From the NCBI GenBank assembly GCA_038087875.1, contig CM075989.1:6822001-6886000 (forward strand): a stretch of 64,000 nucleotides of DNA, in the 5' to 3' direction. This stretch comes from Malacoraja senta. Its lineage: Eukaryota. Below the pieces are notes generated by a model. It did no database searches and was not told the origin of the DNA. It worked only from the letters and a program-made list of their open reading frames with translations. Shown one piece after another: positions 334-60,154 of this stretch. Every line of letters starts with the position of its first letter. Position 1 is the first letter of the stretch. A program made the translations under genes and the position numbers.

Positions 334-784
334 CTAGATACTGCCTGACCTGGTGAATATTTCCACCAGAGTGTTTCCTTTTTTCTTGTTCTTTTCAAGG
401 CAATGCTATTGCTGAGGCATGCCTCCCTCTTCCAAGTTTTTGAGCAGCTGGTCTACAAATAAAATGACCACCATAGCTTGGTATTAATCTGCTGGGACAG
501 GTCGTAACTAAACAAAGCCCAACTCACCAGCTGGAGACCCAACCCACGGGAGCCAAGAACGGTTTATATCATGAGTTGTTCTACTGGCACATCATCTGAA
601 ATGTAAGTTTGTAATTATGACTAGATTAAACGACTTTATTGACAAATAATTAGGTACTTTTTTCACCATGCTGGTTCTTCACCCGTTTACAATGTGAAGC
701 GTGAGTCCAGTTAGTTTTTTTCTGCAGTATTTGTTACCAGGAGAACCTGACGTGGCCCTTATTCCTCCAAGCTCCTCTTATTTG

Positions 785-1203
785 TATATAAAGCCCTTAA
801 CGGGCTTGCCCCCCCGATATCAAAAATCTTCTAACCCACCATTCTACCTCCAGGTCCCTCAGGTCGGCCGACTTGGGGCTACTGACTATCCCGCGGTCTA
901 GGTTTAAGCTCAGGGGCGACCGCGCTTTTGCGGTTGCAGCACCTAAACTGTGGAACCGAATCCCTCTCCTCATCAGAACTGCCCCCTCCATCGACTCCTT
1001 TAAATCGAGGCTCAAAACCTATTTCTACTCCCTAGCGTTTTTGAGCCCTTTCAGGGGGCGCTGTAAACAGTTTCTGTATGTATTGTTAGGTCTGTGTACC
1101 GTTGTATGTATCACATTAGTATCTGCTCTGATGTGAAGCACTTTGGTCAACGTGAGTTGTTTTTAAATGTCATATACAAATAAAATTGACTGACTGACTG
1201 ACT
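785..1203 (+). mobile_element. L2-clade LINE 3' fragment
   Basis: Translates to PRSRFKLRGDRAFAVAAPKLWN...FKSRLKTYFYSLAF, a typical L2 ORF2 C-terminus. Followed by tgaagcactttgg...aataaa and a (TGAC)n tail. Confidence 0.85.
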
Positions 1204-4811: not shown

Positions 4812-5160
4812 AAGGTTAGTTTAGTGTCACATGTACCAATTAAGGTACAGTGAAATTTGTATTACCATACAGCCATATTTTAAAAAATGCAACAAGGCAC
4901 ACAACTATGTAAAAGTTAACATGACCATCCACCACAACGGATTCCCCACGTTCCTCACTGTGATGGAAAGCAATAAAGTCCAATCTTCTTACTCTTTATT
5001 CTCCCGCAGTCGGGGCAGTCGAGCCATCCGCAGTCGGGGCGATCGAAGCTCTCGCAGCTGGCGGTCGGAGCCCCCGCGTCGGGGCGATCGAAGCTCCTGT
5101 GGCTCGGAATTCCGCGATGTTAAAGTCCGCAGGCTCCCGCGGTTGGAGCCCCAAAGTCGA
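4812..5160 (-). mobile_element. GC-rich non-autonomous retroposon, 5'-truncated copy with Rex1-like tail
   Basis: Shares the 3' hairpin (4928-4967) and tail layout with the copies at 8.2, 40.6 and 58.4 kb. Confidence 0.65.
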
Positions 5161-8183: not shown

Positions 8184-8922
8184 AATCAGAATCAGAATCA
8201 CACTTTATTCACCAAGTATGTTTTGCAACATACGAGGAATTTCATTGGCCAGGTCAGTCATACAATTAAAAGCAACAGATCACTCAAAAACACATTTTAA
8301 CATGAACATCCACCACAGTGACTCCTCCACATTCCTCACTGTGATGGAAGGCGAAATAAAGTTCAAGTCCTTCCCTTAGTTCTTCTCGGTCGTGGGTCTT
8401 GAGCCCCCGTTGACGGGACGATCTTGACTCCCGTAGCCGGCGGCGTTTGGGCCCTCCGCGTCGAGGCGATCAGCTCCCGCATCGGGGGGAAGTCAGCTCC
8501 CCTGCGCCGGCCGATCGAACCTCGTGTCGGGGCTGGTCGAACCTTCCGCGATGTTGGAGCTTCCCGACCAGCCTCTCCCGAGACTTCGAGCTCTTGATGG
8601 TAAGTCTGCAGGCCACGGTGGGAGCGATCTCAGGCAAGGGACCAGCTCGGATGTTAAGTCCACGCCCCGCGGTGGGGCTCACGACAGTTCGAGGAGGCCT
8701 CCAGCTCCAGCGATGGTAGGTCGCAGAGCGCCCGGAGAATGTGATCCGAAAATCAATCACATTTCCGGGAAGGTAAAAACCTGAAAAAAAGGTTTCCCCC
8801 CTCCCCCACATGAAACAAACAGAAGAATATTAAAACAGAAACTTTTAACAAACTAAAAAATAACAAAAAGAGTGAAAAGATGAACAGACTGCCAGCAGGG
8901 CAGCCATCTCCCCAGCGCCCCC
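8184..8922 (-). mobile_element. GC-rich non-autonomous retroposon with Rex1/Babar-like tail
   Basis: 5' ggggcgctgggagatggctgccctgctggcagtc, T-rich and G-run spacer, GC-rich body, hairpin 8309-8348, aataaa and (GATTCT)n tail. Confidence 0.7.
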
Positions 8923-9601
8923 CGGTGGTCTTGATCGGAGAGGCATTTAGAGAGCATGCGTCATCCCAAGTTGTAAATGAACCCCCGGGACAGCCCTTAA
9001 AAGCAGCATTCAAGGAAATTGTTGAAAATAAATTGCTGAAGGTTGAGGGAGGAGATGCGCGGGCCAAGTTTTTGTTAAACGGGGTGGGGGGGGGGGGGGT
9101 GGGGTGGATAGAGGCATATGATGTTTAAGAGGGTTATGGAGAGGCACATGGCAGGGGATGGAGGGATATGGATTACATACAGGCAGATAAGAGTTGACCT
9201 TGTTGTCCTGTTGGCACAGACATTGTGGGCCAAAGGGCCCGTTCCTGTGCTGTATATGCAATGTTCTATGTAGCCTTTGATCCTAACAGATGAGTGAGAT
9301 ATATATTTTATCAGTGAACAAAAGGGGCTATCCCTGTGGTAACCATTGTCATACAGTGCAGCTTCCCTGTAGACCATGAAGGAATGGTGTGAGGCTTGCT
9401 TGCACAATTTGGTATACATTGCTTACAATATCCCTTACAACATTGATCAGTGTCACAATTCATCATAAGGCACGGTGCCATGTACTGTCCATGTTAAAAC
9501 TCCTTTCATTCACTAAGTGGAGATCTTTGTTTGAAGCAGAGGGCAGTAAGTGCTCCTCTCCTCTCAGGGTACCGCATGTCTGTTGGCAATTGTTCAGCAC
9601 T

Positions 9602-10039: not shown

Positions 10040-10250
10040 AGACATTATTTGTCACATATACCAATTGGTACAGTGAAATGTGTGGTCACCATACAGCCAT
10101 ACGAATAAAGTAAAGAGCACAGAACACGATAGTCTTTAACATAGACATCCCCACACAGCGGAATCAACGTTTCCCACTGTGAGGGAAGGCACCAAAGTTC
10201 AGTCATCCTCCTCTGTTGTCCTCTGTTGTTCACCCGTGGTCGGGTGGCTC
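10040..10250 (-). mobile_element. 3' fragment of the GC-rich retroposon family
   Basis: gaggacaacagaggaggatgactga is shared with 28573-28597; family hairpin and Rex1-like tail present. Confidence 0.6.
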
Positions 10251-27284: not shown

Positions 27285-27929
27285 ATGGATACTTTTTGTT
27301 TAATGGTAAAAGCTAAGTACGTTTTCAGAAACTTCTGACGTAAATTTCCATTGGACATTTTTTAATGGGTTCCTCATTCATTAATTCCTCTGTTCATGTT
27401 CCAGGAACAAAACTAGGCCATTTGGCCCATCATGTCTATTCCACCTTTCAATCATGGCTGATCTTTCGCTCTTAACGCCATTCTCCTGCATTCTCCCCAT
27501 AACCCCTGACACCCCGGCTAATGATTAGTGAGTTAAACTCTCCTTCAAGAGCTTGTAATCATTAAAAACATTTTGATCAAACTCCAAAAATCCATCTGAT
27601 GTGAATTTGTGTTATCATTTGCACCCACACCAAATATACACGTCATTGGTGTTATTACTGACTGTAGCATCAACATTGAGTGTTGCAGACTTCTGACTGC
27701 AGGCAAGGCCCTTCTGCAATGACTGGTGATGTAGTGTTCATACAATCATCCTTTCTTTATCTCGTACACTCCGTTGAGCTTGTTTCTTTAATATAGTAAT
27801 ACGTGGATTTGTATAAAGAAGGGTAAGACACCAATAAAAGCCCTGCCCCTCCATTTAACACAGGGATTTTTAGTCCAGTATGGCAAATGGCATTAGTACA
27901 AGTGATGGTTACACTGAAGGTTAGTACTA

Positions 27930-28597
27930 GGGACGCCGCATTGAAGGCAGCCTCTGCCTACAGTCTGTTTGTTTTTCTATCTTTTTTTTATTTTTAGTTA
28001 GTTTTAAAAGTATGTTCTTTAGTTTCTCTAACTTTTCTATGTGGGGGAGGGGGGTAGGGTAAGGGGGAAACCGTTTCCCAGTCACTTCCTGGTGAGGACG
28101 TGACTATTCTCTGAGTCGCGTCCTCGCCCCCCTCCTCGCGGCCTACCACCTGGATTGGAGCGGCCTTTCCTGCCGGGGACCGGACCAGAGCTCCAGCAGT
28201 GGCGGCGCAATGCTGGATTCACAGCGGAGCGGGCGATGCCTTACCTGGGATCGCCGTGGAGGCTCCGGAGCGCTGGGCCTGCTGCATCAACATCGGAGCT
28301 GCAGAGCTTCCAGCGCGGCCGGCGCTGTCTTCAACATTGCGGAGACCTGGGGCCATTTGCCGAGGGCCGCCAGCGTTGAATCTCCGCCCGGCGCGGTCTG
28401 TGGACTTCGGGAGCCGTGGACTCTGGTAGGAGGTGGCCGTTTCGGATGTCCAAGCTGCGGAGGATGCCCTCCAGTCCCGACGTCGGTCTTCCATCACCCC
28501 GGCGAGCGGGCTTGAACATCGGGCCGCCCATAATGGCGACAGCGGGGACTCGGGAGCCCCCCCGACCAAGGGAGGACAACAGAGGAGGATGACTGAG
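27930..28597 (+). mobile_element. GC-rich retroposon copy lacking its own 3' end, abutting an HE1 SINE tail (28598-28684)
   Basis: Body blocks cctcgcggcctacc, ggagcggcctttcctgccgggga and gagcgggcgatgccttacc are shared with 47947-48842. Confidence 0.72.
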
Positions 28598-34605: not shown

Positions 34606-35423
34606 ATAATAATAATAAATTTATTTATATAGCACATTTTCCAATTGATTTGAATCAAAAGCCAAAGTGCTTTACAGTTAACTAACCATACAAATAATAA
34701 AAAGAGATAGAAAAAATAACAACATACTATAAGAGATTTTACACAAACACGAACATCCCCCCACAGTAGAATCTACACTCTCCACTGTGAGGGAAGGCAC
34801 CAAAATGTCCAGTCCTCCTCCTCCTCCTAGTCCACCCGAGGTCGGGGCCAGTTTGAGGCCACTGCAGCCAGTCGCCGCAACGGCAGCCCGATGTTGTTTG
34901 CCCACCCGCATCGGGTGGAAAACTCCTCAGCAGCTTGGAATTGTCTGGAGCGGCCGCTCCTTTCCCGGAGACTGCGACGCCCGTGGATTTCAGGCCGCGC
35001 CGGTTGGAGCCTCGACTCCGCGGTGTCTCCGATCCAGCGCTGCCCTCAAACCACAAACTGCAGACCGCAGACCGCGGCTGCTCGATGTTGGTGGTCGGCG
35101 GCCACAGCACTCCGGAGCGGCGACCCGGCAAGGCATCGCCCGCTCCCTGCTGATGTCCCAGCGCTGTGCCGCCGAAGCTGTGGTCCCCGGCAGGAAACGC
35201 CGTTCCAGCCCGATGGAAGGCCGCATGGGGAGACCGGAGACGCGATTTGGAGGAAAACCGCATCTCTGACCAGGTAGGACTGGGGTTAAAACAGTTCCCC
35301 CCCCCCCACATAGAAAGAATAGACTCCAAAAAATAAATGTTCAGACAATAAAAGAGTTAGAGGACGGACTGCAGGCAGGCGGCCATACAAACGGCGCCCA
35401 CTCCTGCACATCCGCCATCTTGG
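34606..35423 (-). mobile_element. GC-rich non-autonomous retroposon, full length, L2-like tail
   Basis: Starts CCAAGATGGCG; cctacctggtc motif; hairpin 34756-34794; tgtaaagcactttgg...gtgctatataaataaa and (TAT)n. Confidence 0.8.
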
Positions 35424-36689
35424 ATGCTTTGTTCAATGGTTCTTTATTATCACGTGTACCTAGGTACGGTAAAATTCTTTTTTATGCCTTCAGATCAGTA
35501 AGATTATTGCAATGTATAAATACAATCCCAGATTTACAGAATGCATAGAAGCAGCCCACTGAGTCCATATGCAAGAGTCGCCAGGTTTTGGCACCTTTAA
35601 AGTTTCGGCTGCAGCTGGCTAGAAAGGCCCGTCGCAGCCATCGCCATGATCCAAATCGTCCCACCAACCATCGCCCCTCTCCTCGCCCGTTCAGCTTCAG
35701 CCTTCGTGCCCCAGGGGCACCTCTCACAGCCAACCTTGAGAGCAAGGAAGGTAAGACCCACGGATCTTCTTACCGGCCCTCTGTCCAGCGTCCGTTCCTG
35801 TTTCCGGCCTCCTCCACCTTCCTCTCCGGTTCCCGGTCTTCGGCAAGCAAATAAGAGATGTGCCTTGGATGGGGCTCCCTCTCCAGGCGGGTTCCTGGTT
35901 ACGCCGCGAGCAAGCCAGGCCTGCTACGGGGTGTGGCAGCGGCCCGCGGCCCTTCAGCAGCCTCCCACCATCCAAAACCTTTCCTATCCATCAATGTTTG
36001 ACGGTTCACTCATCGAGGCAGGGGGAGATTATCCCATCGTGCTGCCAACTTGTCCCTTGTTGGTGGTGGAAATGCTTTGGTTGCCAATAAATGAGCCATT
36101 TACTGCCGAATACCCAGCCTGTGACAACTCCTCAATGGTCGATAACACAGAGACCTCTTGAAGCCTCCAGAAATTGTAGACATCAAATTATGACAAAGTA
36201 GAGAATATTAAATAGACCATGAATGGAGTAAGTGTGTATAGATTGCCGAGGCAAAATCAGTAGATATCTGAAATAAAAGGCAAAAATGCTGGAAATAATC
36301 AGCAGATTAGGTAATAAATTTAGAAAGTTGTAGATATTGGAGTCTAGAAAGCTGCAAAGGGCCCATATAGAAGATGGCGTAGTTCCTCAATCTTGTACAG
36401 AGCCTCATTAGGGGGTCACAGACTAATGGATGGGAGTGAGATGGAGTTGAAGAGGCAGATAATTGTAAGATCAGGTTCCCCCTTCTTCTGCGGACTGAAC
36501 ATAAATGTCCGTAAATGGAATGGAATGCTATTTATTGTCATTCAAACAACTAGGTTTGAACGAAATTTCATTTTCTACAGTTTTTTACATTACAACAACA
36601 AAAAACAAGACGCACACTTAACACAGTTTACATAAACATCCATCACAGTGAATCTCCAACACCTCCTCACTGTGATGGAAGGCAAAGTC

Positions 36690-36985
36690 TTCAATCTCCC
36701 AATCTAGTTTGGTTTCTCTAATGCAGAGGAGATGACGCAATGCACTAGATTGGACGAAGAGCGAGTGAGTCGTTACTTCACCTGTCCAGACATGTTTTGG
36801 CCCCTGGATGGTGGGCAGGGAAGAGTGGGAGTGTTGCACTGTCTGCGGTTGCAAGCGAAAGTGCTGTAAAGAGGGGGAGGAGGGTTAGTGGGGACGGACC
36901 AGAGGACCATGGCGCAGTAAAGGGTGGAATCCTGCATAATTTAGAAAGGTGTGTCTCATGGAAGATGTGTCTCACCTTCTGGAAA
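36690..36985 (-). mobile_element. Degenerate Penelope GIY-YIG-region fragment
   Basis: Similar to 10800-11110 (gtgttgcactgtctgcggttgcaag, acttcacctg). Confidence 0.55.
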
Positions 36986-39790: not shown

Positions 39791-42110
39791 AACATCCATT
39801 CTTTATTATCATGGAACTTTCGTGACCTGGTGTCTGCTATCGTGTTCATTCTACCTGGTAGATAGATAGCTGAAATCCAAATGTTCTTTTCAATACACCA
39901 AGACCAAAGTTGATTAGCCATTTTGTCACATGACACCGACTTAATTCCACCCATATCATTAATATAGGCAACTGCTGTTGTGTTTATCAATTTGAACTTG
40001 AACATGCCTTTTAGTTGTGTTAGAACAATAAGCTTAGAGTCCATAGAAACATCCTAAAAGCTCCAAATAGTTAGTTCCCCATGTCTGCAGTAACAATGAC
40101 TCTTCCTGATTCCATCTGCCTCCGCAGCTAGATGTTAAGTCAGTTGCACCCCATCCTAGTGCACTGGCATCAGTTTGTAATATCATGGAAGGTTGTTCAA
40201 TCAGCACTTTGCCGGAACTGCTTGAGACATGTAGAATCCACCACTGCAGATCAGAAACAGCATTTGTTGTTAGTTGCATGGTTCTATCAAATGACCAGCA
40301 TGCATTCTCCGTGCCTGTTGTTTAACTCTCTGCAGCTGTTGATAATGTAATGGTCCATACTGGACTGCTGGGAATCTACTAATTTTCCCAGTACTCGAGC
40401 CACCTGTCTGATTAAGGTTTTTTGCTCGTTTAACAGATTACTGCAATCTTTAATCAACTCCACCCTTTTTTCACTGGGCAAAGTAATTTTCATTTGGGCT
40501 GAATCAATTGTGAACCCCAAATAATCAATCGAGGTACATGTTGTTAACCTTTAGAGATTTAGAGATTCCTTTATTTGTCATTCAGACCTTTCGGTCTGAA
40601 CGAATTTCGTTGCCTGCAGTCATACATATAATAATAAATAACAAAACACACAATAAACACAAATTAACATCCACCACAGTGAGTTCACCAGGCACCTCCT
40701 CACTGTGATGGAGGCAAAAGTCTTAAAGTCTCTGTCTCTTCCCTCTTTGTTCTTCCTCTGCGCTGAGGCGATCCAGGCTTCTGATGTTGTGACCCCGCCG
40801 GGTGATGGTAAGTCAGTCCCGCGGCTGAATCCGTGCTCCGCGACGGGCCGGTTCAAACTCCGCGGCCCGGGGTGGCCGAAGCTGCCGAAGCTGCCCCCTC
40901 CAGTCCAGCGGACGCAGCTGTAGTTGCGGGAGCTCCAGAAAAACAGATCACCCACCTGTGACCTGCGAGCTCCCGACGATGTCGTCCACCGGGCCCGCGG
41001 CCGAGCCTCCGGACTCAGGTCGCCACCAGTGTCCTCGGTCGCCACCGCCGGAACGCCACCGCAGCCCCGAAGCCGGCCAGCCCCACGCTGGTAAGTCCTG
41101 GCTCTGCCTCCGGAGCCTCGAGGTCGGTCGGCCGCAGTTGGAGTTGGAGGCCGGTAGCTCCGCCGTTAGGCCTCAGCGCAGACGGAGGCAGAGAAGGGGG
41201 ATACTACAAGAAAATGTCGCATTCCCCCCGAAGGAAGAGACAAAAATCATGTTTCACCCCCCACCCCACACATACACAACCCAATAAACTAAATTTTAAC
41301 TAAAACAGGACAAAAGAAAACAACAAAAAAAGTAAAAACAGACGGACTGCAGGCAAGCCGCTGCTGTTCAACAGCGCCGCCACTTCCGGAACCTTGATTT
41401 CTTTGGATGAATTTAGAAAACCCCAAACTTTCAAAAGTTGATTTCACAACTGCAACAGATGCTTCTGTTGACTGTTTTGTCCTTCCTATAATCAGGACAT
41501 CATCCAAGTATGCCATTAGTACATGCCCCTGGCTTCTCAGCAACCCCAGAATTGATTTTAACAATTTTGTGAATATTCTGGGAGCGGACGTTAACCCATT
41601 AGGCAGAGCTTTGAACTGCCCTAACTGGTTCATCCATGTAAATTTAAGATACTTCATGTCTTCCAAGTGAACAGACACTGAATAATATACATCTTTTAAA
41701 TCTATAGTTGCCATAAAACATGCTTCTGAGATAAGTTGTTTGGCAGTACAAATGTCTCCATTTTAAAATGTCTAACTTGAACACATGGATTCAGACTTGT
41801 CAAGTCTATAATAATCCTACATCCTCCATCCTTTTTTGATCGAGGGAATATATTTGACACAAATTGGTGAATTTGGTAGACTGATTCTTCAATAACACCT
41901 TTTATATATAGGGTTTGAAGCGCAGCTTGAACCTCCATCACTTCTTTTTGTGCAAAGTGGAGAGTTCTGCTAGGAACATGCTGGACAGGCAAATCATAAT
42001 TTGGATTGAATTCAATTCGAAATCCTTGTATATTATTCAGAATTACCACATCTGAAGTAATCTTCTTCCAATTGTTATAGAAGAGACGTAATCTGCCTCC
42101 AACTTTTGGA
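39790..42110 (-). pseudogene. DIRS RT/RNase H (frameshifted, interrupted at 40552-41389)
   Basis: VGGRL; IDLKDVYY; LPNGLTSAPRIFTK; AYLDD; YLGFTIDS; TDASALGWG; INTTAVAYIN; YLPGRMNTIAD. Confidence 0.9.
40552..41389 (-). mobile_element. GC-rich retroposon inserted in the DIRS RT; Rex1-like tail
   Basis: 6-bp TSD AACCTT (40546-40551, 41390-41395); removing it restores IHPKKSRLTTCTSIDYLGFTIDS; hairpin 40670-40712. Confidence 0.88.
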
Positions 42111-43270
42111 CTTAATCCGATTAGTATGTTCCCATGAGAACCAGGTCCACCTACCTCTTGAGTCATTTGAGTACTCTGAGATCCCTGGATTCTCCCGGAA
42201 GCACCCCCACTGGTTCTTGCTCCCGCTGCAGGCCGCCAGCTACGTCCCTGCGTTAATGAGCGACTTGGTCCTGGTCCAGGATCCGTATGACGTCTGAAAG
42301 GATACTTCCTCTTTACAGACTTTACAACCATTGATGTTTTCATCAATCCTGTTTTCGCTTCATCTTCCAACTCTTTAATACGTCTCCCGAGATCCTCTCC
42401 AAAGAGTAAGTTGGGTAATTGTATATTACTTGGTTTGCAGAGTGCTGCGAATTTCGGATTCATAGTAGGCCGTATAGCACCTTTCCTCAGACAATTGATC
42501 TCGAAGTGGGTGCTGCATAGCAACCCCAGTGCCTCCTGATGCAACTCTGTCATCTCTTGGCTTTTATCTGCTATTCTGGCAAAAGCAGTTATTCCAGAAC
42601 CCAGCAGCTTTAATATTCTCTGCAATTTCAATTCTTGAGTTCTCATACTCAACTCATATTTTCTTGCATTCTCATCCATCTCCTGCTGTTCCAGCTGATG
42701 GGAAACCAAGTAATTTATTAGGGAGGCCAATTCTTCTCCTAATGGCTCTCCTGACCCTGACGGGGCAGCGAATCGTACTGCCAGGGATGGAACATCTGGC
42801 AGCTGCCGTTCTTCGCCTTGCACAGCCTCACCATCAGAGTCGGGGTCTGAAATCTCATGACCCGTGGCACGCTCCTCATCCCTGAGGGTGCATTCTATCA
42901 GCCCTGTACCAGGAGCTGTTGAGCTGCTTCCAGCAGCTTGGATTTCAGTACACTCTTCACTGAGTGTGCTTCGCTCCAACAGCCTATGTAGCAGGCTTTC
43001 CATTTGGGCAATACGCTTAAAAGCAGTATCTAGCCCTGGAGCTTCTTCCATTTCCATTTCCTGGGACTCCTCCTCCGTGGCCCGTTTCGATTTGAACTTG
43101 GCCTTTCGCCCGACAGGCGTTGACTGCCCCAGGTCCACAGTCGCTATGCTCACCGCTGGCGACTGTACCGGGGTTAGAGGCGGTTGGTCGCTAACCGCAG
43201 ACTCCCGACTTTCCCGACTTTCTGTCGGCTGAGTCGCTCGCCTCTTCCCCCTGCCCATTTTTTCCATGGC
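42111..43270 (-). pseudogene. DIRS gag-like ORF1
   Basis: Long ORF upstream of pol; EINCLRKGAIRP...LLFGEDL resembles the DIRS gag C-terminus. Confidence 0.75.
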
Positions 43271-44029
43271 GTCTGTGGAAAAAATCCCCACAAACCCACA
43301 GTAAACGGACCTGAAAATACTGAAAAAAGTTTTTACTTACCTTGTAGTTAAAAAACTACAAATCCATTAGAGGAGCTCTGCTCCTCACGTCCGTTTGCGT
43401 CAAGGCGTCTGACGTAATGACGCACAGGCGCACTGGCGGGGTTCTTCACGTAGTCACTCACGTGACTCCGAAGTAAAATCCCTATTTCATTATAGATCAA
43501 TTGCAGTACCTTTACTACCTAATTGAAGCTGAGATCCGATATTTGGCTCAGTCTGACATAGCATAGGCTTCAGCATTTAGAAATAGTCAAAGGTGTTGCA
43601 GGCTATTCCGATCGGAATAACTTCTCACACATCCCATATCACTACATCCCACGACTTTCCCTCCCTCACAAGCTGGTCAACCTATTATGAATTCAAATCG
43701 TGGAAGAAACGAAGGCCTTGGATCACTCTGTCACTGACCCACTAATGAAGTTTGAAGTTTTGGTTCCCAGTGTCGGGGGGGGGGTGGCAGGGCATGTTCC
43801 ACCCCATTTAACTCCCATTACAATATAAAGGTCGCGCAATTGATTTTTATCCAAGATAAGTTATTTTGAAAGACGTCGTGCTGAGCTGAAATCATTTTGG
43901 CTTTTAATAAATGCATGCAGCAATTCATGAAGTTCACAACTGACAGATCACACGTTAATTCACTGCACAGAGGAGAGGGATTGTACAAAGAATCACGCTG
44001 AGCAAAAGAGTCTCAAGCAATGACAATGC

Positions 44030-44290
44030 CGTCAAGGCGATCACCCGAGAAGGCGCTGCCTCAAAAAGGGCAGCCATGACCCACACCACCCTGGCCACAT
44101 TCTTATTTCACATCTGCCATCCGGAAAACTGTAAAGTCCCGATTTGGGAATATTGATTGCTCTTTTTTGTTGATTGTATTATGTATTGAGTACTGTGTCT
44201 ACAAACCTGTGACACTGCTGCAAATAAGAATTTCATTGTTCCATTTGGATACCTATGATAGTAAAAAAAAAAAACAACTCTTGACTCTTA
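44030..44290 (+). mobile_element. Rex1/Babar-like LINE 3' fragment
   Basis: RRCLKK...DPHHPGHILISHLPSG; aagaatttcattgtt tail. Confidence 0.55.
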
Positions 44291-45269
44291 TTACATTGAC
44301 TGGAGTTTGTACCTTCTCCCTGTGACCACGTGGACCACATTCCAAAGACGTGCAGGGTTTTGTAGGTTAATTGGCTTCTGTAAGTTGTCCCTAGTGTCGG
44401 GTAGAATTACTGTAACGTTTTCCCCTCTGTGCAACGTTGCATAACTCTCTCCCTCTCTCAAACCCAAACAAATCAAACCCACCAAGATGCAGTGCAGAAC
44501 GCCACCGGAGACCCTTTTCCCCTGTGGCTATCAAACTGTACAACTCCTTCCCCCTTCTGCTGTGGGGTAGACTGACTCTCCTCCTCCCCGCCCCCCTTCC
44601 CCCTCCCTAATCCTTTCCACTCGTCGCTTTAATCTCATGTTTCATGTATCTTGTGTTTTATGACTGTTGGCAGATCAATCTCCCTCCTGGGATAAATACA
44701 TTTCTATCGTATCGTAAGCATCTCCGAGCCGCTCCTTCCTGCAACATTTTTGTGACATTCCATGTACTAAGAGGGGAAGTGTGTGCATGGCGGCATTATG
44801 GGGGGAAATCTATCTTTGGACAGATGCTCTATTGGGAAGCAGAGGTCGTGTCAATCGTTGCAAATCTTCCTGCGTTTTGGACAAGTGTTTAAATGCAGTG
44901 TGCAGAGAGCAAATGGCCCCATAGCAGAAGCGTCCACATCGCGGGGCTGGGAACTGGAGGTATCCCGAGCTAATTCTGCTACCACCATCATCTATTGCAA
45001 CAAGTGATGGCTTCCACTGATGTCGCCGGAAGCTTGCGTCCTTTTCAGGACGGACGATGACAGCGAGGCCAACATTTGTAACAAGATGGACACGAAAAGA
45101 AGTAGAGAGTAAATAGTCCAGGGATACTCGCTTTCCAAGTTTTATTGAATTCTGGAAGTTCATTTGTGTCAACGTTGCTATGGTAAAGATTGTCTTTGGT
45201 TTCTAGGCCAAACTAGCGCTGAATCAGCATTCTGTTCACATTGCTGAGCATTGTGGGTCTCTCCTCTGA

Positions 45270-47556: not shown

Positions 47557-47946
47557 CCCAGTGCAAATGTCCTGTTTTTAATAACAATGGCCAAAACAAG
47601 AGCCACTCCAACGTGGGAGATTTTGGGACAGAAACATCATTTATCATCAACTCCACTGGGTCCGAAAGGCAATCAGCACCTTGGGGTGGAGTTGTACAAT
47701 TGGACCCCAGCATTAATATGGCAATTCTTCCAGAGGGGTGCTGGATGTTGTGGGGAGTTAATCGGCTGATAAAGATTTGCCCAAATGTCAGTTGGATTCA
47801 AGAGACAGCAGATACTGGAATCCTGAGCAAAAAACAAAGTGCTGGAGGCACTCAGCAGGTCAGGCAGCATCTCTGGAGAAAAAGGATTGGTGACGTTTCA
47901 GGTCGAGACCCTTCTTCTGACAAGGGCTGTACTAAACCCTGAGTCA

Positions 47947-48842
47947 CCAAGATGGTGTCACTGCAGGAGTGGGGCACCGTTGTGTATGGCAGCTCTCCCT
48001 GCAGTCCGTCCGTTCACCTTTTTTATTTTTATTTTTAGTCCTGTCAAAAAACAAATGTTAGTTGGAGGTCTTTTATGTGGTGGGAGGGGAAGGGGGAAAC
48101 TTTATTTCCTAGTCCCTACCTGGTCGGAGAGGCGGCTTCCCTCCGAGCTGTTTCTTCGCCCCTTCCTCGCGGCCTACCATCGAGACTGGAGCGGCGTTTC
48201 CTGTCGGGACCGGCCGGGACTACAGCTTCGGCGGCGGCACAGCCCTGGGACACCAACACGGAGCGGGCGATGCCTTACCGGGTCGCCGTGCGGTAAGCTT
48301 CGGAGTGCGGTGACCGCCGACTCCAACATCGAGGAGCTGTGGCTGCGGGCGGCGCTGGATTTAAAACACCGCGGAGCCTGGGATCCGAGATCGCCGGGCA
48401 CGGAGCTCCAGCCAACGCGGCCTGAGGACTACGGGTGCCGCGGTCTCCGGGGAGGAAGCGGCCGCTCCAGACATTTTCCAAGCTGCTGAGGAATGTTCAC
48501 CCGACGGCAGTTCCAGCTTCACGGCAAAGAGGGCCTGAAAACATCGGACTGGCTGTGGAGGCCACAAATAGGCCCCGACCTTGGGTGGTCACAGAGGAAG
48601 AGGACTTAACTTTTTGTTGCCTTTCCCCACAGTGGAAATTTTTGATTCTGTTGTGGGGGGGGACGTTCTTGTTGAATTCTATAATGTGTTATGTCATTTT
48701 TCTGATTTTTAATTTTTCTATGGATGTACGGAAACGTTATTATTTCTTTTATTATTTCTTTTATGTAAAGCACTTTGGTTTCAACGCGAGTTGATTTAAA
48801 CGTGCTATATAAATAAAACTTACTTACTTACTTACTTACTTA
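47947..48842 (+). mobile_element. GC-rich non-autonomous retroposon, full length (896 bp), L2-like tail
   Basis: 8-bp TSD CTGAGTCA (47939-47946, 48843-48850); starts CCAAGATGG; tail matches the L2 tail at 1130-1203; (TTAC)n. Confidence 0.9.
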
Positions 48843-49052
48843 CTGAGTCAGTGATATCTGACTGTGAGCTTTGCCAATCTGCAAAACTTCGGCCCTTTCA
48901 ATTTCATGCTGTTAACTGCAGTTGTTGGATTCATAGTCCCTGATACTGGGTTACATTTGCACCAAAGGCAGAATGTATCCAGTTAGATGGGCAAATGTGG
49001 CTCTGGGGAGTGAGGGCCCCTAACTGGCAGTGACTTGCGTTTGCTGGTAAAT

Positions 49053-49265
49053 TTAGGGACAATTTAAATTAATACCAAACCAATTAACCTACAAGCCTGT
49101 ACGTCTTTGGAGTGTGAGAAGAAACCGAAGATCTCGGAGAAAACCCACGCAGGTCACGAGGAGAACGTACAAAATCCATACAGACAGCACCCGTAGTCAG
49201 GATCGAACCCAGGTCTCTGGTGTCGTAAAGGAAGCAACTCTACCGCTGCGCCAACGTGCTGCCCA
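49053..49265 (-). mobile_element. HE1-like SINE fragment
   Basis: Reverse complement of head and core. Confidence 0.78.
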
Positions 49266-49569
49266 CGACAGACGTGGGAGTAATGCAGTTGCACATCGTG
49301 TAGTATCATCTTTGAGTAACTCTAAACCATCTGAGTATAAACTTCTCACCAGCAGAGGATGTCTCCTGTCGTTATTGATTATTCATGCAGTATGCCATCA
49401 TATTTTGCCACTAGGACTTTGAATAATATTTTCACATTCTTTCAGTAGAAACAAAAATAAATCATAAAGGAAACTGGCAAAAAAAAACAAAGAATAGACG
49501 AGGAGAATTTATTTCAAACCTTCACATTGCGATGGTGCCAAAGACGAAGAAAATAGAAATGGTTGGATC

Positions 49570-49905
49570 ATGTATAAAATCATGAGAGGAATAGATCGGG
49601 TAGAGTCTCTTGCCCAGAGTGGGGGAAATGAGAACCAGAGGTCATCGGTTTAAGGTGAAGGGGGAAAGATTTAATAGGAATATGAGGGGTAACTTTTTCA
49701 CACAAAGGGTGGTGGTTGTATGGAATGAGCTGCCGGAGGAGGTAGTTGAGGTAGGTACTATCGCAATGTTTAAGAGGCAATTAGACAGGTACATGGATAG
49801 AACAGGTTTAGAGGGATATGGGCTAAACACAGGCAAGTGGGACTAGTGTAGATGAGACATGTTGGTCGTTGTGGGCAAGTTGGGCCGAAGGACTGTATGA
49901 CTCTA
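49570..49905 (+). mobile_element. CR1 3' fragment
   Basis: MRTRGHRFKVKGERF...FFTQRVVVVWNELPEEVV. Confidence 0.88.
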
Positions 49906-50411
49906 TTCCCCGGTTAATCAAGTTTGAGAGTCACAAAGTAACAAGAAGGTGTTTTGTGCGTAATATATCCTTGTATCTATTCTTCACATTGCATTTTTTT
50001 GGAGAGAAAGTACTCTGCTTTAATCAGGACAAATTGCTGCAGTTTCACTCTTCTCTACGCTTTAAATAGACTCATTTTACTGAGTATATTGATTGTGTGT
50101 GTTCTTCAATAACTGGTGTGATGCGTGCGCTGTGTCTGATGGGCTGACGTATTGTCAATAAATATTCTTTCCTTATTTAATGCAGCTATAATTGTGCCTG
50201 AGTAGGTGATGGTCATGAATAATAACTCCCAAACAAAAATTAAATTGGATAATAGAATGGCTGTTTTAAAGATTCCCTGGATATGACAAGGGATTGGAAG
50301 TGTCTGGGCAGCTTTCCCAAGAACCCTGGCCAGTCCTGAAGGGCCGAATGGATTCCTGGTACATTATTGGATAATTGCATAAACTTCCGTCCTCTCTTCC
50401 AACATTCCTGG

Positions 50412-51124
50412 TTAGTTTAGAGATACAGCGTGGAAACAGGCCCTTCGGCCAACCGTGTCCGCACCGACCAGCGATTCCTGCACACTAACACTATCCTACA
50501 CACACTAGGGACAATTTACAGTTATACCGAAGCTAATTCATCTACAAACTTGTATGTCTTTGGAGTGTGGGAGGAAACTGAAGATCTGCAGTTTAGAAGG
50601 GTGAGAGGGAATCTTATAGAAACATATAAAATTCTTAAGGGATTGGACAGGCTAGATGCAGTAAAAAAATGTTCCCGTTGTTGGGGGAGTCCAGAACCAG
50701 GGGTCACAGTTTAAGAATAAGGGGTATGCCATTTAGGACTGAGATGAGGAAACCCAGAGAGTTGTGAGTCTGTGGAATTCTCGGCCACAGAAGTTAGTGG
50801 AGGCCAATTCACTGGATGTTTTCAAGAGAGAGTTTGATACAGCTCTTAGGGCTTATGGAATTAAGGGATATGGGGAGAAAGTGGGAACAGGGTACTGAAT
50901 TTGGATGATCAGCCATGTTCATATTGAATGGCGGTGCTGGCTCGAAGGGCCGAATGGCCTACTCCCGCACCTATTTTCTATGTTTCAATATTTCTATCTG
51001 GGAGAAAACCCACGCAGGTCACGGGGAGAACATACAAACTCCGTACAGACAGCACCCGTAGTCAGGATTGAACCCAGGTCTCTGGCGCTGTGGGCAGCAA
51101 CTCTACCGCTTTTCCACCCTGCCA
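50412..51124 (-). mobile_element. HE1-like SINE split by a CR1 3' fragment (about 50589-50995, +)
   Basis: gaagatctg|...|atctgggagaaaacc rejoin; CR1 RRVRGNLIETYKILKG and tttctatg tail. Confidence 0.85.
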
Positions 51125-52119
51125 CCTTCCTGTTCCTGAGAATATATGCCTAGTAAAAGAATTTGTGACGTGATTGTCTTAGTAAACTACTGAAGCTAAT
51201 ACTTTTTTTTCCAAGGACTCATATAATGGCATTAGTTCAACATTTTGACTCTCAGCTCCCAGTTAATTTATCGCAGTTGACTGGGTTTCTGCTATGAATA
51301 TATTTTTCTCTCCGCTTCTTTCCTTTCTGGAGATGAGCAGTGCAGAGTACAAAAGGCTCTTGGGGAATTGGACAGGAGATATGCTTACAGTGGTTCGTGC
51401 TTGAGATACAGGCTGCTGCAGATGCTGGAGTGCTCGTGCTTTGCATTGAGCTGATGGGACAAAATGCTAATTTATCTTTACTCAATTCAGTTGCAAAAGC
51501 CAAGAGTTACGACTAAGATAGACACAAACTGCTGGAGTAACTCATGCTGCATCTCTGGAGAAAAAGGGTAGGTGACGTTTCGGGTCAGGACCCTTCTTCA
51601 GACTGCACACCAAGAGTATAACCATTGGGAAAAGCTTGCACAGAACACAATGATTTAATTTCAAAAAACAAGAATTATTCATAAGAAATAATATCATACA
51701 AAACATAAGCTGCGCAAATACTCTTCAGCCATCCTCAGTGTCTATACATTCAAGAGTGTCATACTCAGTAGTGTTTGCACCCATCTTTAAACAAGACATC
51801 CCTACCACTCTTGTGCCCTCCCTGGGGTGATCTCCCTTCCCCTGTTTGAGGGATGTCCCCACCGGACTCTGCCCCTCAATGTCCAGCAGCGGAAGGATCA
51901 TTCACTGAGGGGGGGGGGGGGGGTCGAAGACCAAGCAGTCTTCGCTCCACAGATTTATTTTTTCCCGAAAATAAGCTATTATTCAGAATAAAACACACTG
52001 CTTTATTTAACTACCATATGTATTCTGGCAGCTTACTAAACACATCCTCTGGGTCTCACAGAACTGTGGTTGTGCTGAGTTAACGGATTTCATTCAGGGA
52101 GGTGTTCCTCAATGATTCA

Positions 52120-52375
52120 ACGGTGCTTTGTGGTCACATGTACCTAGGTGCAGTGCAATGCTTTGTTTTACGTACAACCCGGTTAAAACACGAGACAGAG
52201 CGCACCTGGGCAGCACACGAGTGTCGCCAGATGACTGGCATCGCCAAAGTTACAAATGTTCACCGAACAGTCCTATCTTCTGTCCACTGCCGCACGTGGC
52301 AGCAGGCGACCCCCTGCCAAGTCCCCCCTTGCTCTCGACGGCCCCCTTGCTCAGTCCCCTGTGGACTGAGTACAC
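52120..52375 (-). mobile_element. Second short retroposon family with Rex1-like tail
   Basis: Reverse complement resembles 53560-53890 (ccgggttgta.gtaaaac, cctaggtaca.gtgac); related sequence at 35430-35600. Confidence 0.55.
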
Positions 52376-53289
52376 AGTGGCTGATGAGAGATTGGTGCTG
52401 AGCGCATGTGTAGGTGATGCTAGATAGGAGGTATATTTGGTCTGGAGGAGCTGCACATTGCATATATATGGATAGTTTGAACAGGATTAAGCCTCCTATG
52501 GAACACATTAGTACAGCACAAGAACAGGCCTTTCGGCCCAAAATATCTGTGCTGAACATGATGTGAAGACCAACCCTACTCTGGCCACATATAATCCATA
52601 ATCCCTCTATTCCCTGCATATCCATATTCCCATCCAAAAGGTCAAATCTGCCTCCATCACCCCCACCACTCGTCTAACCCTGTACAAAAGAATATTTGCC
52701 CCAAACGTCTCCTTTTAAAGTTAAGATAGACACAAATTGCCATAGTAACTCAGCGGGACAGGCGGCACCTCTGGAGAGAAGGAATGGGTGATGTTTCAGG
52801 TCGAGACCCTTCTTCAGACTGATGTCAGGGGAGAGGGAGACACAAACTTTGTCCCTCTCACTCATAAGCTATTTAATTTATGTCAGGGTGGATTGACGTA
52901 CCGTGTGTGACAGTGTGGGCAAAGCCGTCAGTGATTTACACCTCACTCAGATCCTGTGGAACAGGTTCCGATTGTCTAATATAGTTTAATGAGCAAAGAA
53001 ATGAGCTAACGTGCACATAATGGTAGAAATGTTTGCAGTTGAAATAGTGAAACAGTGTGTGGTAAGCAGATGAACAAGTGGCTTCAGTGATATATAAGTA
53101 TGGTGATATGGTTAACTTAGAGTTTTCAAGCAATGAAAATCAAATATAACTGCAGATGCTTAACATAAAACCAAAACATGAAAGGTCTTCAATCAAAACC
53201 ATTTAATGTTTCTTTCCACAGATGCCGCCGAACCTGCTGAGTTTTTCCAGCATTTTCTGCTTTTATGTTCCAGACTAATGATTGAGATA

Positions 53290-53540
53290 TGAGTCACTGT
53301 GTAGCTGGGGATTTTTAATTCAGATAATTACTGTAAATGAATCTTGAATGGAAAACGAGTTTCAGTAATAGTGAGTACGAAGATACCAGAATGTCGTTTA
53401 AAAACCCATTTCGTTCACTAATGTTCTTCAGGGAAGGAAGTCTGCTGGTTTATTCTCTGTCTGGTTTGTATGTGGATCCTAACCCTCACCAATGTGGCTG
53501 ATGCTTAATTGCCTCCAAGTGGGACAGCAAAGCCATTCGG
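53290..53540 (+). mobile_element. Ancient SINE relic with Meta-domain-like core
   Basis: aaaaacccatttcgttcactaatgttcttcagggaaggaagtctgc...tctggtttgtatgtggatcc; assigned from recalled consensus. Confidence 0.45.
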
Positions 53541-53559
53541 TTTAAGGGCAAAACCGATC

Positions 53560-53890
53560 TATGCAAACCTCGCACCACCAAGAGCGGGAGGGGCGCCGCT
53601 GAGAGCACGGGGGGACCCGCGCTGCTGAGAACGAGGAGAGAGGGCCACAAAGAACCAAGGTGGGGGGGGGAGAGAGAGACCCGGCAGGGGGGCTGCCTGT
53701 GGCCACGTGCGGTGGCAGGCCTGGTTCGCCGCTGCAAGTAGATAAGACTGTTCAATGAATCTTTTGTAACTCAGTCGGCGCCAGGAGCGCGGCAACTCTT
53801 TGTGTACTGCCCAGGTGCGGTCTGCCGGATGATTTTACCGGGTTGTATGTAAAACGGAGTTTCCCTGTACCTAGGTACACGTGACAATAA
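53560..53890 (+). mobile_element. Second short retroposon family, plus-strand copy
   Basis: Ends tgtacctaggtacacgtgacaataa. Confidence 0.55.
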
Positions 53891-54279
53891 CCACGTTTCA
53901 TTGAGTTATCACCGTGCCAACATTTTGTCAATTCATAAATTAAACAAAAACCATGAGTGTTATTTTATTGGAAAAGGTTTATTAGAAAGATAAATGTCCT
54001 GTTGTATTTAACAGACTGCAGATTTTACCCTGAATCTGATATCTGCTCAGCATGGGTGGGGGGAAGGAGGGGGGAGGGGGTAGAATGATACTTGCAAGGT
54101 AGTGTCTGAGTTGCTTTGTGACTTTTCACAACATAGAAGGCCATTTGGTCCAATGTTCAGAGAATCCCATCCCCCTGTTGTTGCCAAGTAACCTGCACTC
54201 TCTCACATGCTCATCACCTCCAAACTAATCCTCCCGTTCTCAGCTTTCTCACTCCCCTGTCTCACTCTAACCTCCCCCC

Positions 54280-54945: not shown

Positions 54946-55099
54946 CCCGTTCTCAGCGGTGAGGTTGCAGTTTCACTCGCTGTGCCACTGTGCAGTCAGC
55001 TGGTGGAGTCCGTGCTCAAATTTCCAGAGGCAGGTGTTAAAGCAAAGACCAAGTTTCCTTTTCCAAATTTGAATTCACTGACGACGCTGCCAGAGCTGG

Positions 55100-55800: not shown

Positions 55801-55801
55801 C

Positions 55802-56110
55802 GTGCACAGTGGCGTAACGATAGCGTTGTTGCCTTACAGCGCCAGAGACCCAGGTTTCATCCTGACTACCTGCTGTGTGTACAGAGCTTGTACGTTCTCC
55901 CCGCGACAGCGTGGGTTTTCTCCGGGTGCTCTGGTTTCCTCCCACACTCCAAAGACGTACAGGTTTGAAGATTAATTGGCTTCGGTAAAAATTGTAAATG
56001 TTGTCCCTAGTGTGTAGGATAGTGTACGCGGTGATCGCTGGTTAGCATAGACTCGGTGGGCCGAAGGGCCTGTTCCTGCACTGAATCTCTAAACTAAACG
56101 AAACTAAACT
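55802..56110 (+). mobile_element. HE1-like SINE
   Basis: Head, core and (TAAAC)n tail. Confidence 0.85.
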
Positions 56111-56117
56111 AAGACAA

Positions 56118-56437: not shown

Positions 56438-56440
<3 letters not shown>

Positions 56441-56477
<37 letters not shown>
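56441..56477. repeat. (AG)n microsatellite
   Basis: About 18 AG units. Confidence 0.95.
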
Positions 56478-58256: not shown

Positions 58257-58390
58257 AAAATCTACTCTAAATCAACTCTACACTTCAAAGTCAAATTTAT
58301 TCGTCACATGCACCAATGAAGGTGCAGTGAAATGAATTTGCCAGCAGCGATACACTTAAAAAAAGAACACACAATACATAATAGAATTTA

Positions 58391-59253
58391 GATAGATAGA
58401 TAGATAGATAAACATTTATTGTCACATACACCAATTGGTGCAGTGAAATTTGACTTGCCATGCAGCACACAAATAAAGATAACATCCAAGAATTTAACAA
58501 CAACATAAAAACATCCCCCCACAATGGTTCCCACTGTGGGGGAAGGCAGCAAAGTCAGTCCCATCCCCAGTTCACCCATAGTCGGGCCTATTGAGGCCTC
58601 TGCAGTCGCCGCTACGGCAGCCCGATGCTTCAGGCCCTCTCGCCGGATGATGGAGCTCTGGCGTCGGGTGAACACTCTCAGCGGCCTGGAGTGTGTGGAG
58701 TGGCCGCTACCTCCCAATAGACCACGGCTCCCGAAGTCCACGAGCCGCGCTGGTCGATGCTCCGGCTCTGGCGACCTCGTCGTGAGATCCCAGGCTTCAC
58801 GGTGTTTGAAGCTCAGCGCCGCCCGCGGCTGGAAGCTCCACATACCGCAGACCGCAGCTCCGCGATGTTGGAGCCGGCGGTCACACAACTCCGGAGCTTA
58901 CTGCACGGCGACCCGGGTAAGGCATCGCCCGCTCCGCGATGGTAGTTCAGCGCTGTGCCGCCGCTGAAGCTGAAGTCCTGGCCGGTCCCGGCAGGAAAAC
59001 GCCGCTCCAGTCTGCCCGTAGGCCGCGAGAAGGGGCGAAGATACGGCTCGGAGAAAAGCCGCATCTCCGACCAGGTAGGGACCGAGAAAATAGTTTCCCC
59101 TTCCCCCCCCCCCCAACCCCAACCCCCCACATAAAAAGACTAAAGACCTCCAAAAACAAACACTTTTAACTAAGTAAAAAATTTTTTAAAGGGTGAAAAA
59201 AACTAACAGCTGCTGGCAGGGCAGCCATACTCGACGGCGCCCCAGGTGGTATC
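58391..59253 (-). mobile_element. GC-rich retroposon with Rex1-like tail, nested in an older relative (58280-58390 plus 59261-59430)
   Basis: 7-bp TSD GAATTTA (58384-58390, 59254-59260); (TATC)n tail; body similar to 47947-48842. Confidence 0.85.
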
Positions 59254-60154
59254 GAATTTAACACAGACATCCACCACAGCTTTCTTCACTGAGGTGGAAG
59301 GCAACAAAGTTCCATTGTGTGATGTTTGGTGGACTGTGAGGGGTGGGAGGACCCGTTGCTCCTCCTGTGCAGCGACACCTGTTGCACGGGAGGAGCAACG
59401 GGTTGTCCCACCCCACACAGTCAAATATCAAGCATTGTCTCCTCTAATATGACAACCAGAACTGTTCACAATACTTCAAAAGTGGACCAACCAATGTTTG
59501 GTACAACTGCAGCACGACGTCCTAACTCAGTGCCTCAGACTATGGAGGCAAGCCTAAGAAATACCTTCTTCACTATTTTCTCCAACAGTGTACCAGTTTT
59601 CTGCAAGCTCTGGACTTGCTCTTCAAGGTTCAGTCCAGTTCAGTTCAGTTTGGCTTATTGTCACGTGAAAAGCTTTTGTCGCATGCTATCAAGTCAGCAG
59701 AAAGACAATACATGGTTACAATCGAGCCATTTGCAGTGTACAGATACATGGTCCTTCTGTACATTTACACTCCTAACGGTCCCTGGCATTGACCTAGCAG
59801 AACTTAACTTCTGCGTTACATACGCTTAAGATTTTTAGGTCTTCACTTGTTAAATCTGAAGTACACGTGAATCGTTTGAGGGATGAGCGGTGTATTTCAA
59901 GGAGGGAGATGGTTCACAGACAGTAACCCAGGGTTTGCATGTATGGAATTTTTCAACGTTCCCATTAGTTTCATGGAGAACTGACGATGAACTCCAGTGG
60001 TTTCACCCACCAGAACCACTGCACCTTGATGTTTTGCGACATTATAAAGTTCCCTTTTCTACACTTAGCATAGAGCAGCTAAACTAGGATGACTTTATGG
60101 AACCAAAGGAAGGAAGAGATCTAGTAAAAGATAGCTGACTTGGTGCTTTAAGTT

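What the first reader, a model, noticed from the sequence alone, without database searches (positions are those of the whole stretch)
47947..48842. Non-coding GC-rich retroposon family with one body plan and swappable LINE tails (L2-like or Rex1/Babar-like)
Seen: at least 9 related copies or fragments (4812-5160, 8184-8922, 10040-10250, 27930-28597, 34606-35423, 36520-36690, 40552-41389, 47947-48842, 58391-59253). The longer copies share a 5' ggcgcc...atggc...cctgcagtccgtc motif (CCAAGATGG start in two), a T-rich then G-run spacer, a GC/CpG-rich body and a 3' hairpin. They have no tRNA A/B boxes and no convincing ORF. Three copies have TSDs (CTGAGTCA, AACCTT, GAATTTA). Copies 47947 and 34606 end in tgtaaagcactttgg...gtgctatataaataaa, like the true L2 tail at 1130-1203. 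Copy 58391 has a closely similar body but ends in aatttcactg...gtgacaataaa, a Rex1-like tail, and the more divergent 8184 and 40552 copies also have Rex1-like tails. Established: SINEs borrow the 3' end of a partner LINE. Inference: this is a possibly Pol II-driven parasite that has switched partner LINEs by tail exchange.
Basis: partly seen in the sequence, partly recalled or inferred. Interest (0 to 1): 0.72.

Follow-up and report, generated by a model that had tools for sequence, protein, structure and literature searches.

The report
Non-coding retroposon that switched LINE partner
This is an abundant, protein-less jumping DNA element in a skate- or ray-like genome that borrows both of its ends from larger self-copying elements and appears to have changed from one kind of helper to a very different one, a new variant of a known parasitic strategy.

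Summary
The family is real: six copies with a 5' head plus four 3' fragments cover about 9% of the window, and thousands of contigs from three coded organisms match the focal copy. It is not a SINE: there is no small-RNA head, and T-runs near the 5' end would stop Pol III. The head is LINE-derived. Published Rex1 and single-ORF L2 consensuses begin with the same AAGATGGCG (YY1) motif, and the focal head translates like that L2 N-terminus (rank 1 of 98,078 windows, motif chosen after the fact). A ~500-bp CpG-rich body and a covarying hairpin of unknown origin follow. There are two unrelated tail classes, one tied to an L2 ORF end and one to Rex1-type ORF ends. The two L2-tailed copies form one clade (95/95) nested among Rex1-type-tailed copies under a midpoint root, so one Rex1-to-L2 switch suffices; repeated swapping is not shown. 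It works like a Pol II bipartite or hybrid SIDE (Drosophila R2/R1, Persaeus). I found no description in nine literature searches; Repbase and Dfam could not be searched. Transcription and trans-mobilisation are inferred. New variant of a known kind.

The parts
47939..47946 (+). 5' target-site duplication CTGAGTCA
47947..47957 (+). 5' terminus with YY1-type motif
   Evidence: loose ends before 47960 end in CAAGATGGCGG in 31 and 35 contigs of two runs; YY1 role in L1 from PMC5381506
47971..48073 (+). LINE-type head and T-rich tract; translates like the N-terminus of the single-ORF L2 clade
   Evidence: by-eye match to published Rex1 and L2 5' ends
48074..48098 (+). ATGTGG plus G-run spacer, present in all six headed copies
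48105..48595 (+). GC/CpG-rich non-coding body of unknown origin (GC 0.64, CpG o/e 1.03; window 0.47 and 0.57)
48621..48662 (+). Conserved internal hairpin, 13-bp consensus stem
48763..48817 (+). L2-type 3' tail with stem-loop
48818..48842 (+). (ACTT)n terminal repeat
   Evidence: same end in 41 and 69 contigs
48843..48850 (+). 3' target-site duplication CTGAGTCA
34606..35423 (-). Full-length copy, core body, L2-type tail of another L2 variant, YY1 start
58391..59253 (-). Full-length copy, core body, Rex1-type tail A, TSD GAATTTA, nested in an older family fragment
58290..58383 (-). Tail half of the older fragment split by copy 58391
59261..59312 (-). Hairpin half of the older fragment split by copy 58391
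27926..28594 (+). Core-body copy, 3' end lost at another repeat; tail unknown
8184..8928 (-). Divergent full-length member, tail type C (Rex1 label recalled, not tested)
40552..41389 (-). Divergent full-length member, starts with CCGGAAGTG (ETS-like, label recalled), tail type B, TSD AACCTT, interrupts a DIRS-like RT frame
4812..5160 (-). 5'-truncated member, body related to 8184, tail A
10040..10250 (-). 5'-truncated member, core-type hairpin, tail A
36520..36700 (-). 5'-truncated member, hairpin plus tail B
769..1203 (+). 3' fragment of an autonomous-type L2 (ORF end, UTR, tail): reference for the L2 tail
44051..44272 (+). Degenerate Rex1-type ORF end followed by a tail-A-like 3' end: in-window reference for tail A

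Best explanation
A high-copy, non-autonomous non-LTR retroposon family of a batoid-like genome. It is built from the 5' terminus of a CR1-group LINE (Rex1 or single-ORF L2 type), a ~500-bp CpG-rich non-coding body with a conserved RNA hairpin, and a LINE 3' tail. Inferred mechanism: Pol II starts at the internal YY1- or ETS-type head; the ORF-less RNA is bound at its 3' stem-loop by the protein of the LINE whose tail it carries; it is inserted by target-primed reverse transcription. Older lineages carry Rex1-type tails. One lineage replaced this with an L2 tail, by template switch or recombination, and so moved to an L2 helper. Shown: anatomy, TSDs, defined ends, two tail classes and their LINE sources, nesting of the L2-tailed pair. 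Inferred: promoter, trans-mobilisation, direction and mechanism of the switch.
For: TSDs in 3 of 9 copies, microsatellite ends and 5'-truncated copies. Many independent copies begin at CAAGATGGCGG (31 and 35 contigs). T-runs follow the head directly, which excludes Pol III by established knowledge. 18 of the first 20 of 55 AAGATGGCG hits in a published CR1-group library sit at the 5' extremity of Rex1 (17) or L2 (1) consensuses. The head of 47947 ranks 1 of 98,078 and 1 of 49,826 six-frame windows against L2 N-termini. The L2 tail matches the tail of an L2 ORF fragment (z about 15). Tail A follows a Rex1-type ORF end in L002 (z 9.4-10.5 to 58391 and its host fragment, 1.0 or less to L2 tails) and in the window at 44051 (z 3.7-6.1 to the four A tails, 0 or less to the four L2 tails). 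Tree: L2-tailed pair 95/95, sister to 58391. Hairpin: 96.5% of cells paired, 7 double-change cells, 0 of 500 shuffles as high.
Against: Only two L2-tailed copies; the direction rests on a midpoint root and on two long-branch members whose bodies barely align. In the short 3'-module tree the L2 pair has only 60/70 support. Four-taxon sites are mixed, 19/13/3, so gene conversion or homoplasy is present. The motif was chosen after seeing the resemblance; the other five heads rank 63-1208 on the short profile and 6-678 on the long one. L002's pattern was designed from tail A, so its tail score is partly circular; the upstream ORF end is the independent part, and it is weak (tblastn E 0.001). Tails B and C are not tied to any ORF. 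Only 2 of 13 hairpin pairs covary on both sides, and that count is matched by 453 of 500 shuffles. No promoter, expression or mobilisation data.
Confidence: 0.7

Rival explanations
1. Cassette model: the body and hairpin form a module that has been fitted between the two termini of different LINEs, so L2-tailed copies also carry an L2 head and Rex1-tailed copies a Rex1 head. Both ends, or equivalently the middle, were exchanged.
For: Heads cluster with tail class: 47947-34606 z 16-17 and 58391-8184 z 11-12, higher than any cross pair. The 47947 head translates like the N-terminus of the very L2 clade that supplies its tail. By eye the 58391 head reads like published Rex1 starts.
Against: Two copies per class. 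The L2 pair are sisters anyway, so their head likeness is expected. Rex1 and L2 heads resemble each other. The 34606 head ranks only 111 and 154. 47947-58391 heads also score z 8.5-10.8.
Confidence: 0.3
2. The Rex1-tailed ancestor is a plain internal-deletion derivative (SIDE) of one Rex1 family with a long GC-rich 5' region and the hairpin in its UTR. Only the L2-tailed sub-branch is a hybrid.
For: Some published ray Rex1 consensuses have long GC-rich 5' regions (LeuEri_Rex1-7 and -15, HypSab_Rex1-6). Rays have among the highest Rex1 coverage (PMC13343379).
Against: Six body, head and hairpin motifs found 0 matches in the first 400 nt of about 1,000 CR1-group consensuses (exact match, so weak). 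None of 5 Rex1-type and 2 L2 3' UTRs in the window holds the hairpin (best z 2.5). The same hairpin carries at least three non-L2 tail types.
Confidence: 0.25
3. A degenerate ORF-bearing non-autonomous LINE (HAL1 or HeT-A type) in which the body encodes a small protein.
For: ATG frames of 83-190 aa exist in five of six copies.
Against: They lie in different frames; 32 of 122 indels among the four core bodies are multiples of three; no Pfam match above cutoff; no homologue among 3,895 candidates of 301-2,000 aa (weak, near-length proteins not searched). Long frames are expected at 65% GC.
Confidence: 0.05

Closest known systems
R2/R1 hybrid SIDEs of Drosophila (Eickbush and Eickbush 2012, PMC3414825; abstract read)
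   Same: Non-autonomous, ORF-less, 5' part from one LINE and 3' end from another clade, mobilised by the tail donor.
   Different: Those use an R2 ribozyme and rDNA co-transcription, are site-specific and rare. This family has a YY1/ETS-type head, a long unique body, dispersed insertion and high copy number in a vertebrate.
Bipartite non-autonomous LINEs / SIDEs from RTE, Ingi, Vingi, R2 (Kojima 2018, PMC5786205) and Persaeus from CR1-Zenon (Wang 2019, PMC6740152)
   Same: LINE 5' terminus plus LINE 3' terminus, no ORF, presumed Pol II.
   Different: Those papers list no Rex1 or L2 source. Here about 550 bp of body and hairpin with no traced LINE origin lie between the ends, and tails come from two clades.
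SINE superfamilies with a conserved middle and exchanged tails (CORE-, V-, Deu-SINEs; Kojima 2018; Ohshima 2013, PMC3747384, which lists HE1/HER1 in sharks and rays and SINE2-5_NV/Rex1-24_NV)
   Same: Conserved central module, tail borrowed from the partner LINE and replaced over time.
   Different: Those have tRNA or 5S heads and Pol III transcription; this family has neither and is about 850-900 bp.
Autonomous Rex1 and single-ORF L2 of rays (Stuart et al. 2026, PMC13343379)
   Same: 5' AAGATGGCG start followed by a GC-rich segment and a T-rich tract; matching 3' tails.
   Different: They encode an APE-RT ORF of about 1,100 aa; this family encodes nothing.

Membership tests
SINE (Pol III) | tRNA, 5S or 7SL head with A/B boxes | tested here: not met
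   ARAGORN 0 genes; no Rfam hit in any copy; recalled A/B patterns absent in 7 of 7 copies
SINE (Pol III) | No internal T-runs that end Pol III transcription | tested here: not met
   Runs of 5-7 T within about 100 nt of the 5' end in the six headed copies
SINE (Pol III) | 3' tail shared with a partner LINE | tested here: met
Bipartite non-autonomous LINE (SIDE) | 5' end derived from a LINE 5' terminus | tested here: met
   for the focal copy; by-eye match to published 5' ends; weaker for the other five heads
Bipartite non-autonomous LINE (SIDE) | 3' end derived from a LINE 3' terminus | tested here: met
   L2 tail and tail A; tails B and C not tied to an ORF
Bipartite non-autonomous LINE (SIDE) | No coding capacity | tested here: met
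Bipartite non-autonomous LINE (SIDE) | Whole element traceable to one parent LINE by internal deletion | tested here: inconclusive
   Body and hairpin not found in 400-nt LINE heads or in 7 local 3' UTRs; full-length parents could not be searched
Bipartite non-autonomous LINE (SIDE) | TPRT hallmarks (TSD, repeat end, 5' truncation) | tested here: met
Bipartite non-autonomous LINE (SIDE) | Pol II transcription and mobilisation in trans | not testable with these tools
   needs 5' mapping and a retrotransposition assay
Hybrid SIDE (R2/R1 type) | Head and tail from different LINE clades | tested here: inconclusive
   Tail clade changes within the family, but the heads of L2-tailed copies look L2-like
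Hybrid SIDE (R2/R1 type) | 5' self-cleaving ribozyme | tested here: not met
   no Rfam match in any copy
CORE/V/Deu-SINE superfamilies | Body homologous to a described conserved domain | not testable with these tools
   no repeat library on hand
ORF1-bearing non-autonomous LINE (HAL1, HeT-A) | Conserved ORF | tested here: not met
   frames differ between copies; 32 of 122 indels in frame

The most novel reading that the evidence does not exclude
A Pol II counterpart of the CORE- and V-SINE superfamilies: an old non-coding module (G-run, CpG-rich body, conserved hairpin) that persists across batoids by being refitted repeatedly with the promoter head and the RT-binding tail of whichever Rex1 or L2 family is active, with the hairpin carrying a function of its own in the RNA.
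Probability: 0.3. Interest if true: 0.68.

Novelty: new variant of a known kind. Interest (0 to 1): 0.5.

Why it matters
It would add Rex1 and L2 to the short list of LINE clades that spawn ORF-less Pol II parasites, and give a high-copy vertebrate case of a helper switch across deeply split LINE clades. Near-identical bodies with either tail are a natural swap experiment for 3'-end recognition by Rex1 versus L2 proteins. In practice such copies are likely to be counted as Rex1 or L2 through their ends, which may inflate the high Rex1 share reported for rays (inference).

Tried and rejected
No genome is held for the window, so no genome-wide copy set. A body pattern found 0 matches in metagenome and viral contigs. 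The tail-A pattern found 0 in viral and prokaryote contigs and 3 in metagenomes, of which 1 (L002) has an ORF end upstream. Three look-ups of earlier scan findings returned nothing. No RNA holder listed; the one run guessed as RNA was flagged as probably DNA. The loose ends and joints displayed (24 of 1,570 loose ends, 15 of 77 joints) showed no tail switch; the rest were not shown. A word-based protein search with the L002 fragment scored nothing and Pfam found nothing in its three frames. Rejected: '47947 is closest to 58391, so the trees are incongruent', which raw identity suggests but the tree and AU test do not support. A recurring short motif in the bodies exceeded all 300 shuffles in only 1 of 7 copies (8184), so a subunit structure is not claimed. 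LTR or DNA-transposon origin was rejected on the repeat ends and 5' truncation. The supplement of PMC13343379 is cut at 400 characters per sequence, so published 3' ends could not be seen, and the 5' comparison is by eye only.

Full report
Setting. The window is repeat-rich vertebrate DNA. Its L2 fragment at 801-1040 has as best hit a Leucoraja erinacea protein at 83% identity, so a skate- or ray-like host is likely. No genome is held.

Observation. Self-BLAST and alignment recover the nine listed copies. Six carry a head, T-rich tract and G-run; nine hairpins were found, one belonging to an older fragment split by copy 58391. The 11 segments total 5,716 bp, 8.9% of the window. TSDs are confirmed for 47947, 58391 and 40552, 3 of 9. 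Four copies share a clearly homologous body (pairwise 76-83% identity; z 37-114). The bodies of 8184, 40552 and 4812 match these only weakly (z 1-10), although 8184 and 4812 match each other (z 16-19). Bodies are 61-68% GC with CpG o/e 0.88-1.03, against 0.47 and 0.57 for the window.

Distribution. Fourteen of 23 listed runs, from 8 coded organisms and 8 studies, hold half or more of the sampled words of the focal copy. In three DNA runs 6,092, 8,599 and 7,763 contigs were laid on it at 80% likeness or more. Loose ends before 47960 end in CAAGATGGCGG after mixed flanks (31 and 35 contigs), and loose ends after 48818 continue the terminal repeat into mixed flanks (41 and 69 contigs). The element is therefore a discrete, amplified unit with fixed ends.

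Not a SINE, not coding. There is no tRNA, Rfam family or A/B box in the copies. T-runs follow the head, which by established knowledge would end Pol III transcription. ATG frames exist but differ between copies; 32 of 122 indels are in frame; nothing passes a Pfam cutoff; a search of longer proteins gave no homologue.

The head is LINE-derived. CAAGATGGC is the YY1 site that begins most mammalian L1s and is described as critical for initiation (PMC5381506, passages). In the supplement of PMC13343379 (first 400 nt of about 1,000 CR1-group consensuses; parts 1, 15 and 18 of 58 read, four searches), AAGATGGCG occurs 55 times. Of the first 20 shown, 18 are at the 5' extremity, 17 Rex1 and 1 L2. 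Among 22 little-skate entries read, 2 of 5 L2 and 5 of 17 Rex1 start with it exactly. They continue with a GC-rich segment and a T-rich tract, as our heads do (by eye). Four full-length relatives of the window's L2 fragment begin MAPV followed by a hydrophobic stretch. A profile from three of them ranks the 47947 head first among 98,078 six-residue and 49,826 23-residue windows. The motif was chosen after seeing the likeness, and the other five heads rank lower (63-1208 and 6-678). Copy 40552 starts instead with CCGGAAGTG, an ETS-like motif (label recalled).

Tails. Two classes do not align with each other (z 3.2 or less). The tail of 47947 matches the tail behind the L2 ORF at 769-1046 (z about 15); 34606 has another L2 variant (z about 5 to that tail, about 10 to 47947). 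Tail A (58391, its host fragment, 4812, 10040) was tested against ORF ends. Locus L002 carries it about 170 nt behind a degenerate ORF end whose relatives P0063 and P0064 bear PF09004. P0065, 95% identical to P0064 over the shared end, matches by eye the translated start of published HypSab_Rex1-9, which ties this ORF type to the Rex1 label. In the window, weak Rex1-type ORF ends occur at 31388, 44051, 44494, 21416 and 12219; the one at 44051 is followed by a tail scoring z 3.7-6.1 to A tails and 0 or less to L2 tails. Tail B (40552, 36520) folds with A in a stem with 4 of 10 pairs changed on both sides. Tail C (8184) is unlinked; its Rex1 label is recalled only.

Hairpin. A 13-bp stem is kept in 9 of 9 copies: 96.5% of cells paired, covariation above all 500 shuffles and all slid controls, but only 2 pairs change on both sides and relatedness can inflate these scores. 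It is absent from 7 local Rex1-type and L2 3' UTRs (best z 2.5), so it seems to belong to the family and not to the tail donors.

History. By raw identity 47947 is nearest 58391 (384/460 against 337/411 for 34606). But four-taxon sites favour the L2 pair 19/13/3, and the tail-free tree of six copies gives the L2 pair 95/95, sister to 58391 at 92/93, and rejects 47947+58391 at p-AU 0.037. With a midpoint root the L2 tail is derived and one switch suffices. Bodies 77-83% alike carry tails of clades that PMC13343379 places in separate deep lineages, so an exchange is needed whichever way the tree is rooted. Heads also group by tail class, which keeps the cassette rival open.

Mechanism. Most likely (0.7): Pol II transcription from the LINE-type head, recognition of the 3' stem-loop by the tail-matched LINE protein, TPRT insertion, and a Rex1-to-L2 change of helper in one lineage. 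Anatomy and tail sources are shown; promoter, mobilisation and direction are inferred.

What is known. Kojima 2018 (PMC5786205, parts 1-3 of 5 and passages) lists ORF-less bipartite LINEs only from RTE, Ingi, Vingi and R2, calls them very likely Pol II, and documents tail exchange in SINEs. Wang 2019 adds CR1-Zenon and calls SIDEs rare (PMC6740152, abstract and Introduction). Eickbush 2012 describes R2/R1 hybrids (PMC3414825, abstract). Ohshima 2013 lists a Rex1-partnered tRNA SINE in sea anemone (PMC3747384, passages). Kojima 2020 adds RTE cases in hagfish (PMC7245038, passages). Nine searches (one was about the ribozyme noted in passing) showed no description of this family. The library lacks most subscription journals, and Repbase and Dfam were not searchable, so unannotated consensus entries may well exist.

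Verdict. Real. It works like a hybrid SIDE; membership of the SIDE class is not settled because the middle is untraced. New variant of a known kind, interest 0.5.

Noticed in passing
window 44904-44980 (+): Rfam CPEB3_ribozyme hit, 38.9 bits against a gathering score of 35. By eye it keeps the HDV-type pairings, with a changed P1 and a different P4. The family is described as mammalian; PMC8256844 (passages) lists HDV-like ribozymes in lamprey and lancelet but no cartilaginous fish. Single hit in the window, outside the repeats seen; host gene not identified. It could be a CPEB3 orthologue far older than mammals, or element-borne.
   Followed up: partly
window 22546-27284 (+): Full-length Gypsy-like LTR retrotransposon (label from reading the ORF) with 213-bp LTRs that are 100% identical and one 1,397-aa ORF: a very young insertion.
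   Followed up: no
window about 37918-43479 (-): DIRS-like element in pieces (gag-, RT- and tyrosine-recombinase-like frames, labels from reading; short terminal repeats), interrupted by copy 40552.
   Followed up: no
window 35443-35477 (-), 53849-53890 (+), 12671-12710 (-), 33056-33090 (+), 11941-11975 (-): Further isolated tail-A-like 3' ends. One lies directly upstream of the 5' end of copy 34606; the one at 33056 follows a faint Rex1-type ORF end near 32720.
   Followed up: partly
window 31047-31388 (-), 55521-55803 (+), 21060-21416 (-), 44494-44715 (+), 12121-12219 (-): Degenerate Rex1-type ORF ends and UTRs, some truncated by later insertions; the 44494 copy ends in yet another tail type.
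   Followed up: partly
PMC13343379 supplement; P0008, P0013, P0028, P0037: Rex1 and one single-ORF L2 clade share a 5' design in which the start codon seems to lie inside the YY1 motif and the T-rich tract codes for a hydrophobic N-terminal stretch. A shared 5' module across two LINE clades may itself be worth study.
   Followed up: partly
window 60898-62278 (+), 10564-11127 (-), 1854-3516 (-), 1173-1796 (-), 4989-5549 (-): Fragments of an L1/Tx1-like ORF2 (zf-RVT), a Penelope-like GIY-YIG, CR1-like RT, an integrase C-terminus with a weak retroviral-type hit, and an LTR-element protease interrupted by copy 4812.
   Followed up: no
window 9602-9801: 200-base assembly gap of N.
   Followed up: no
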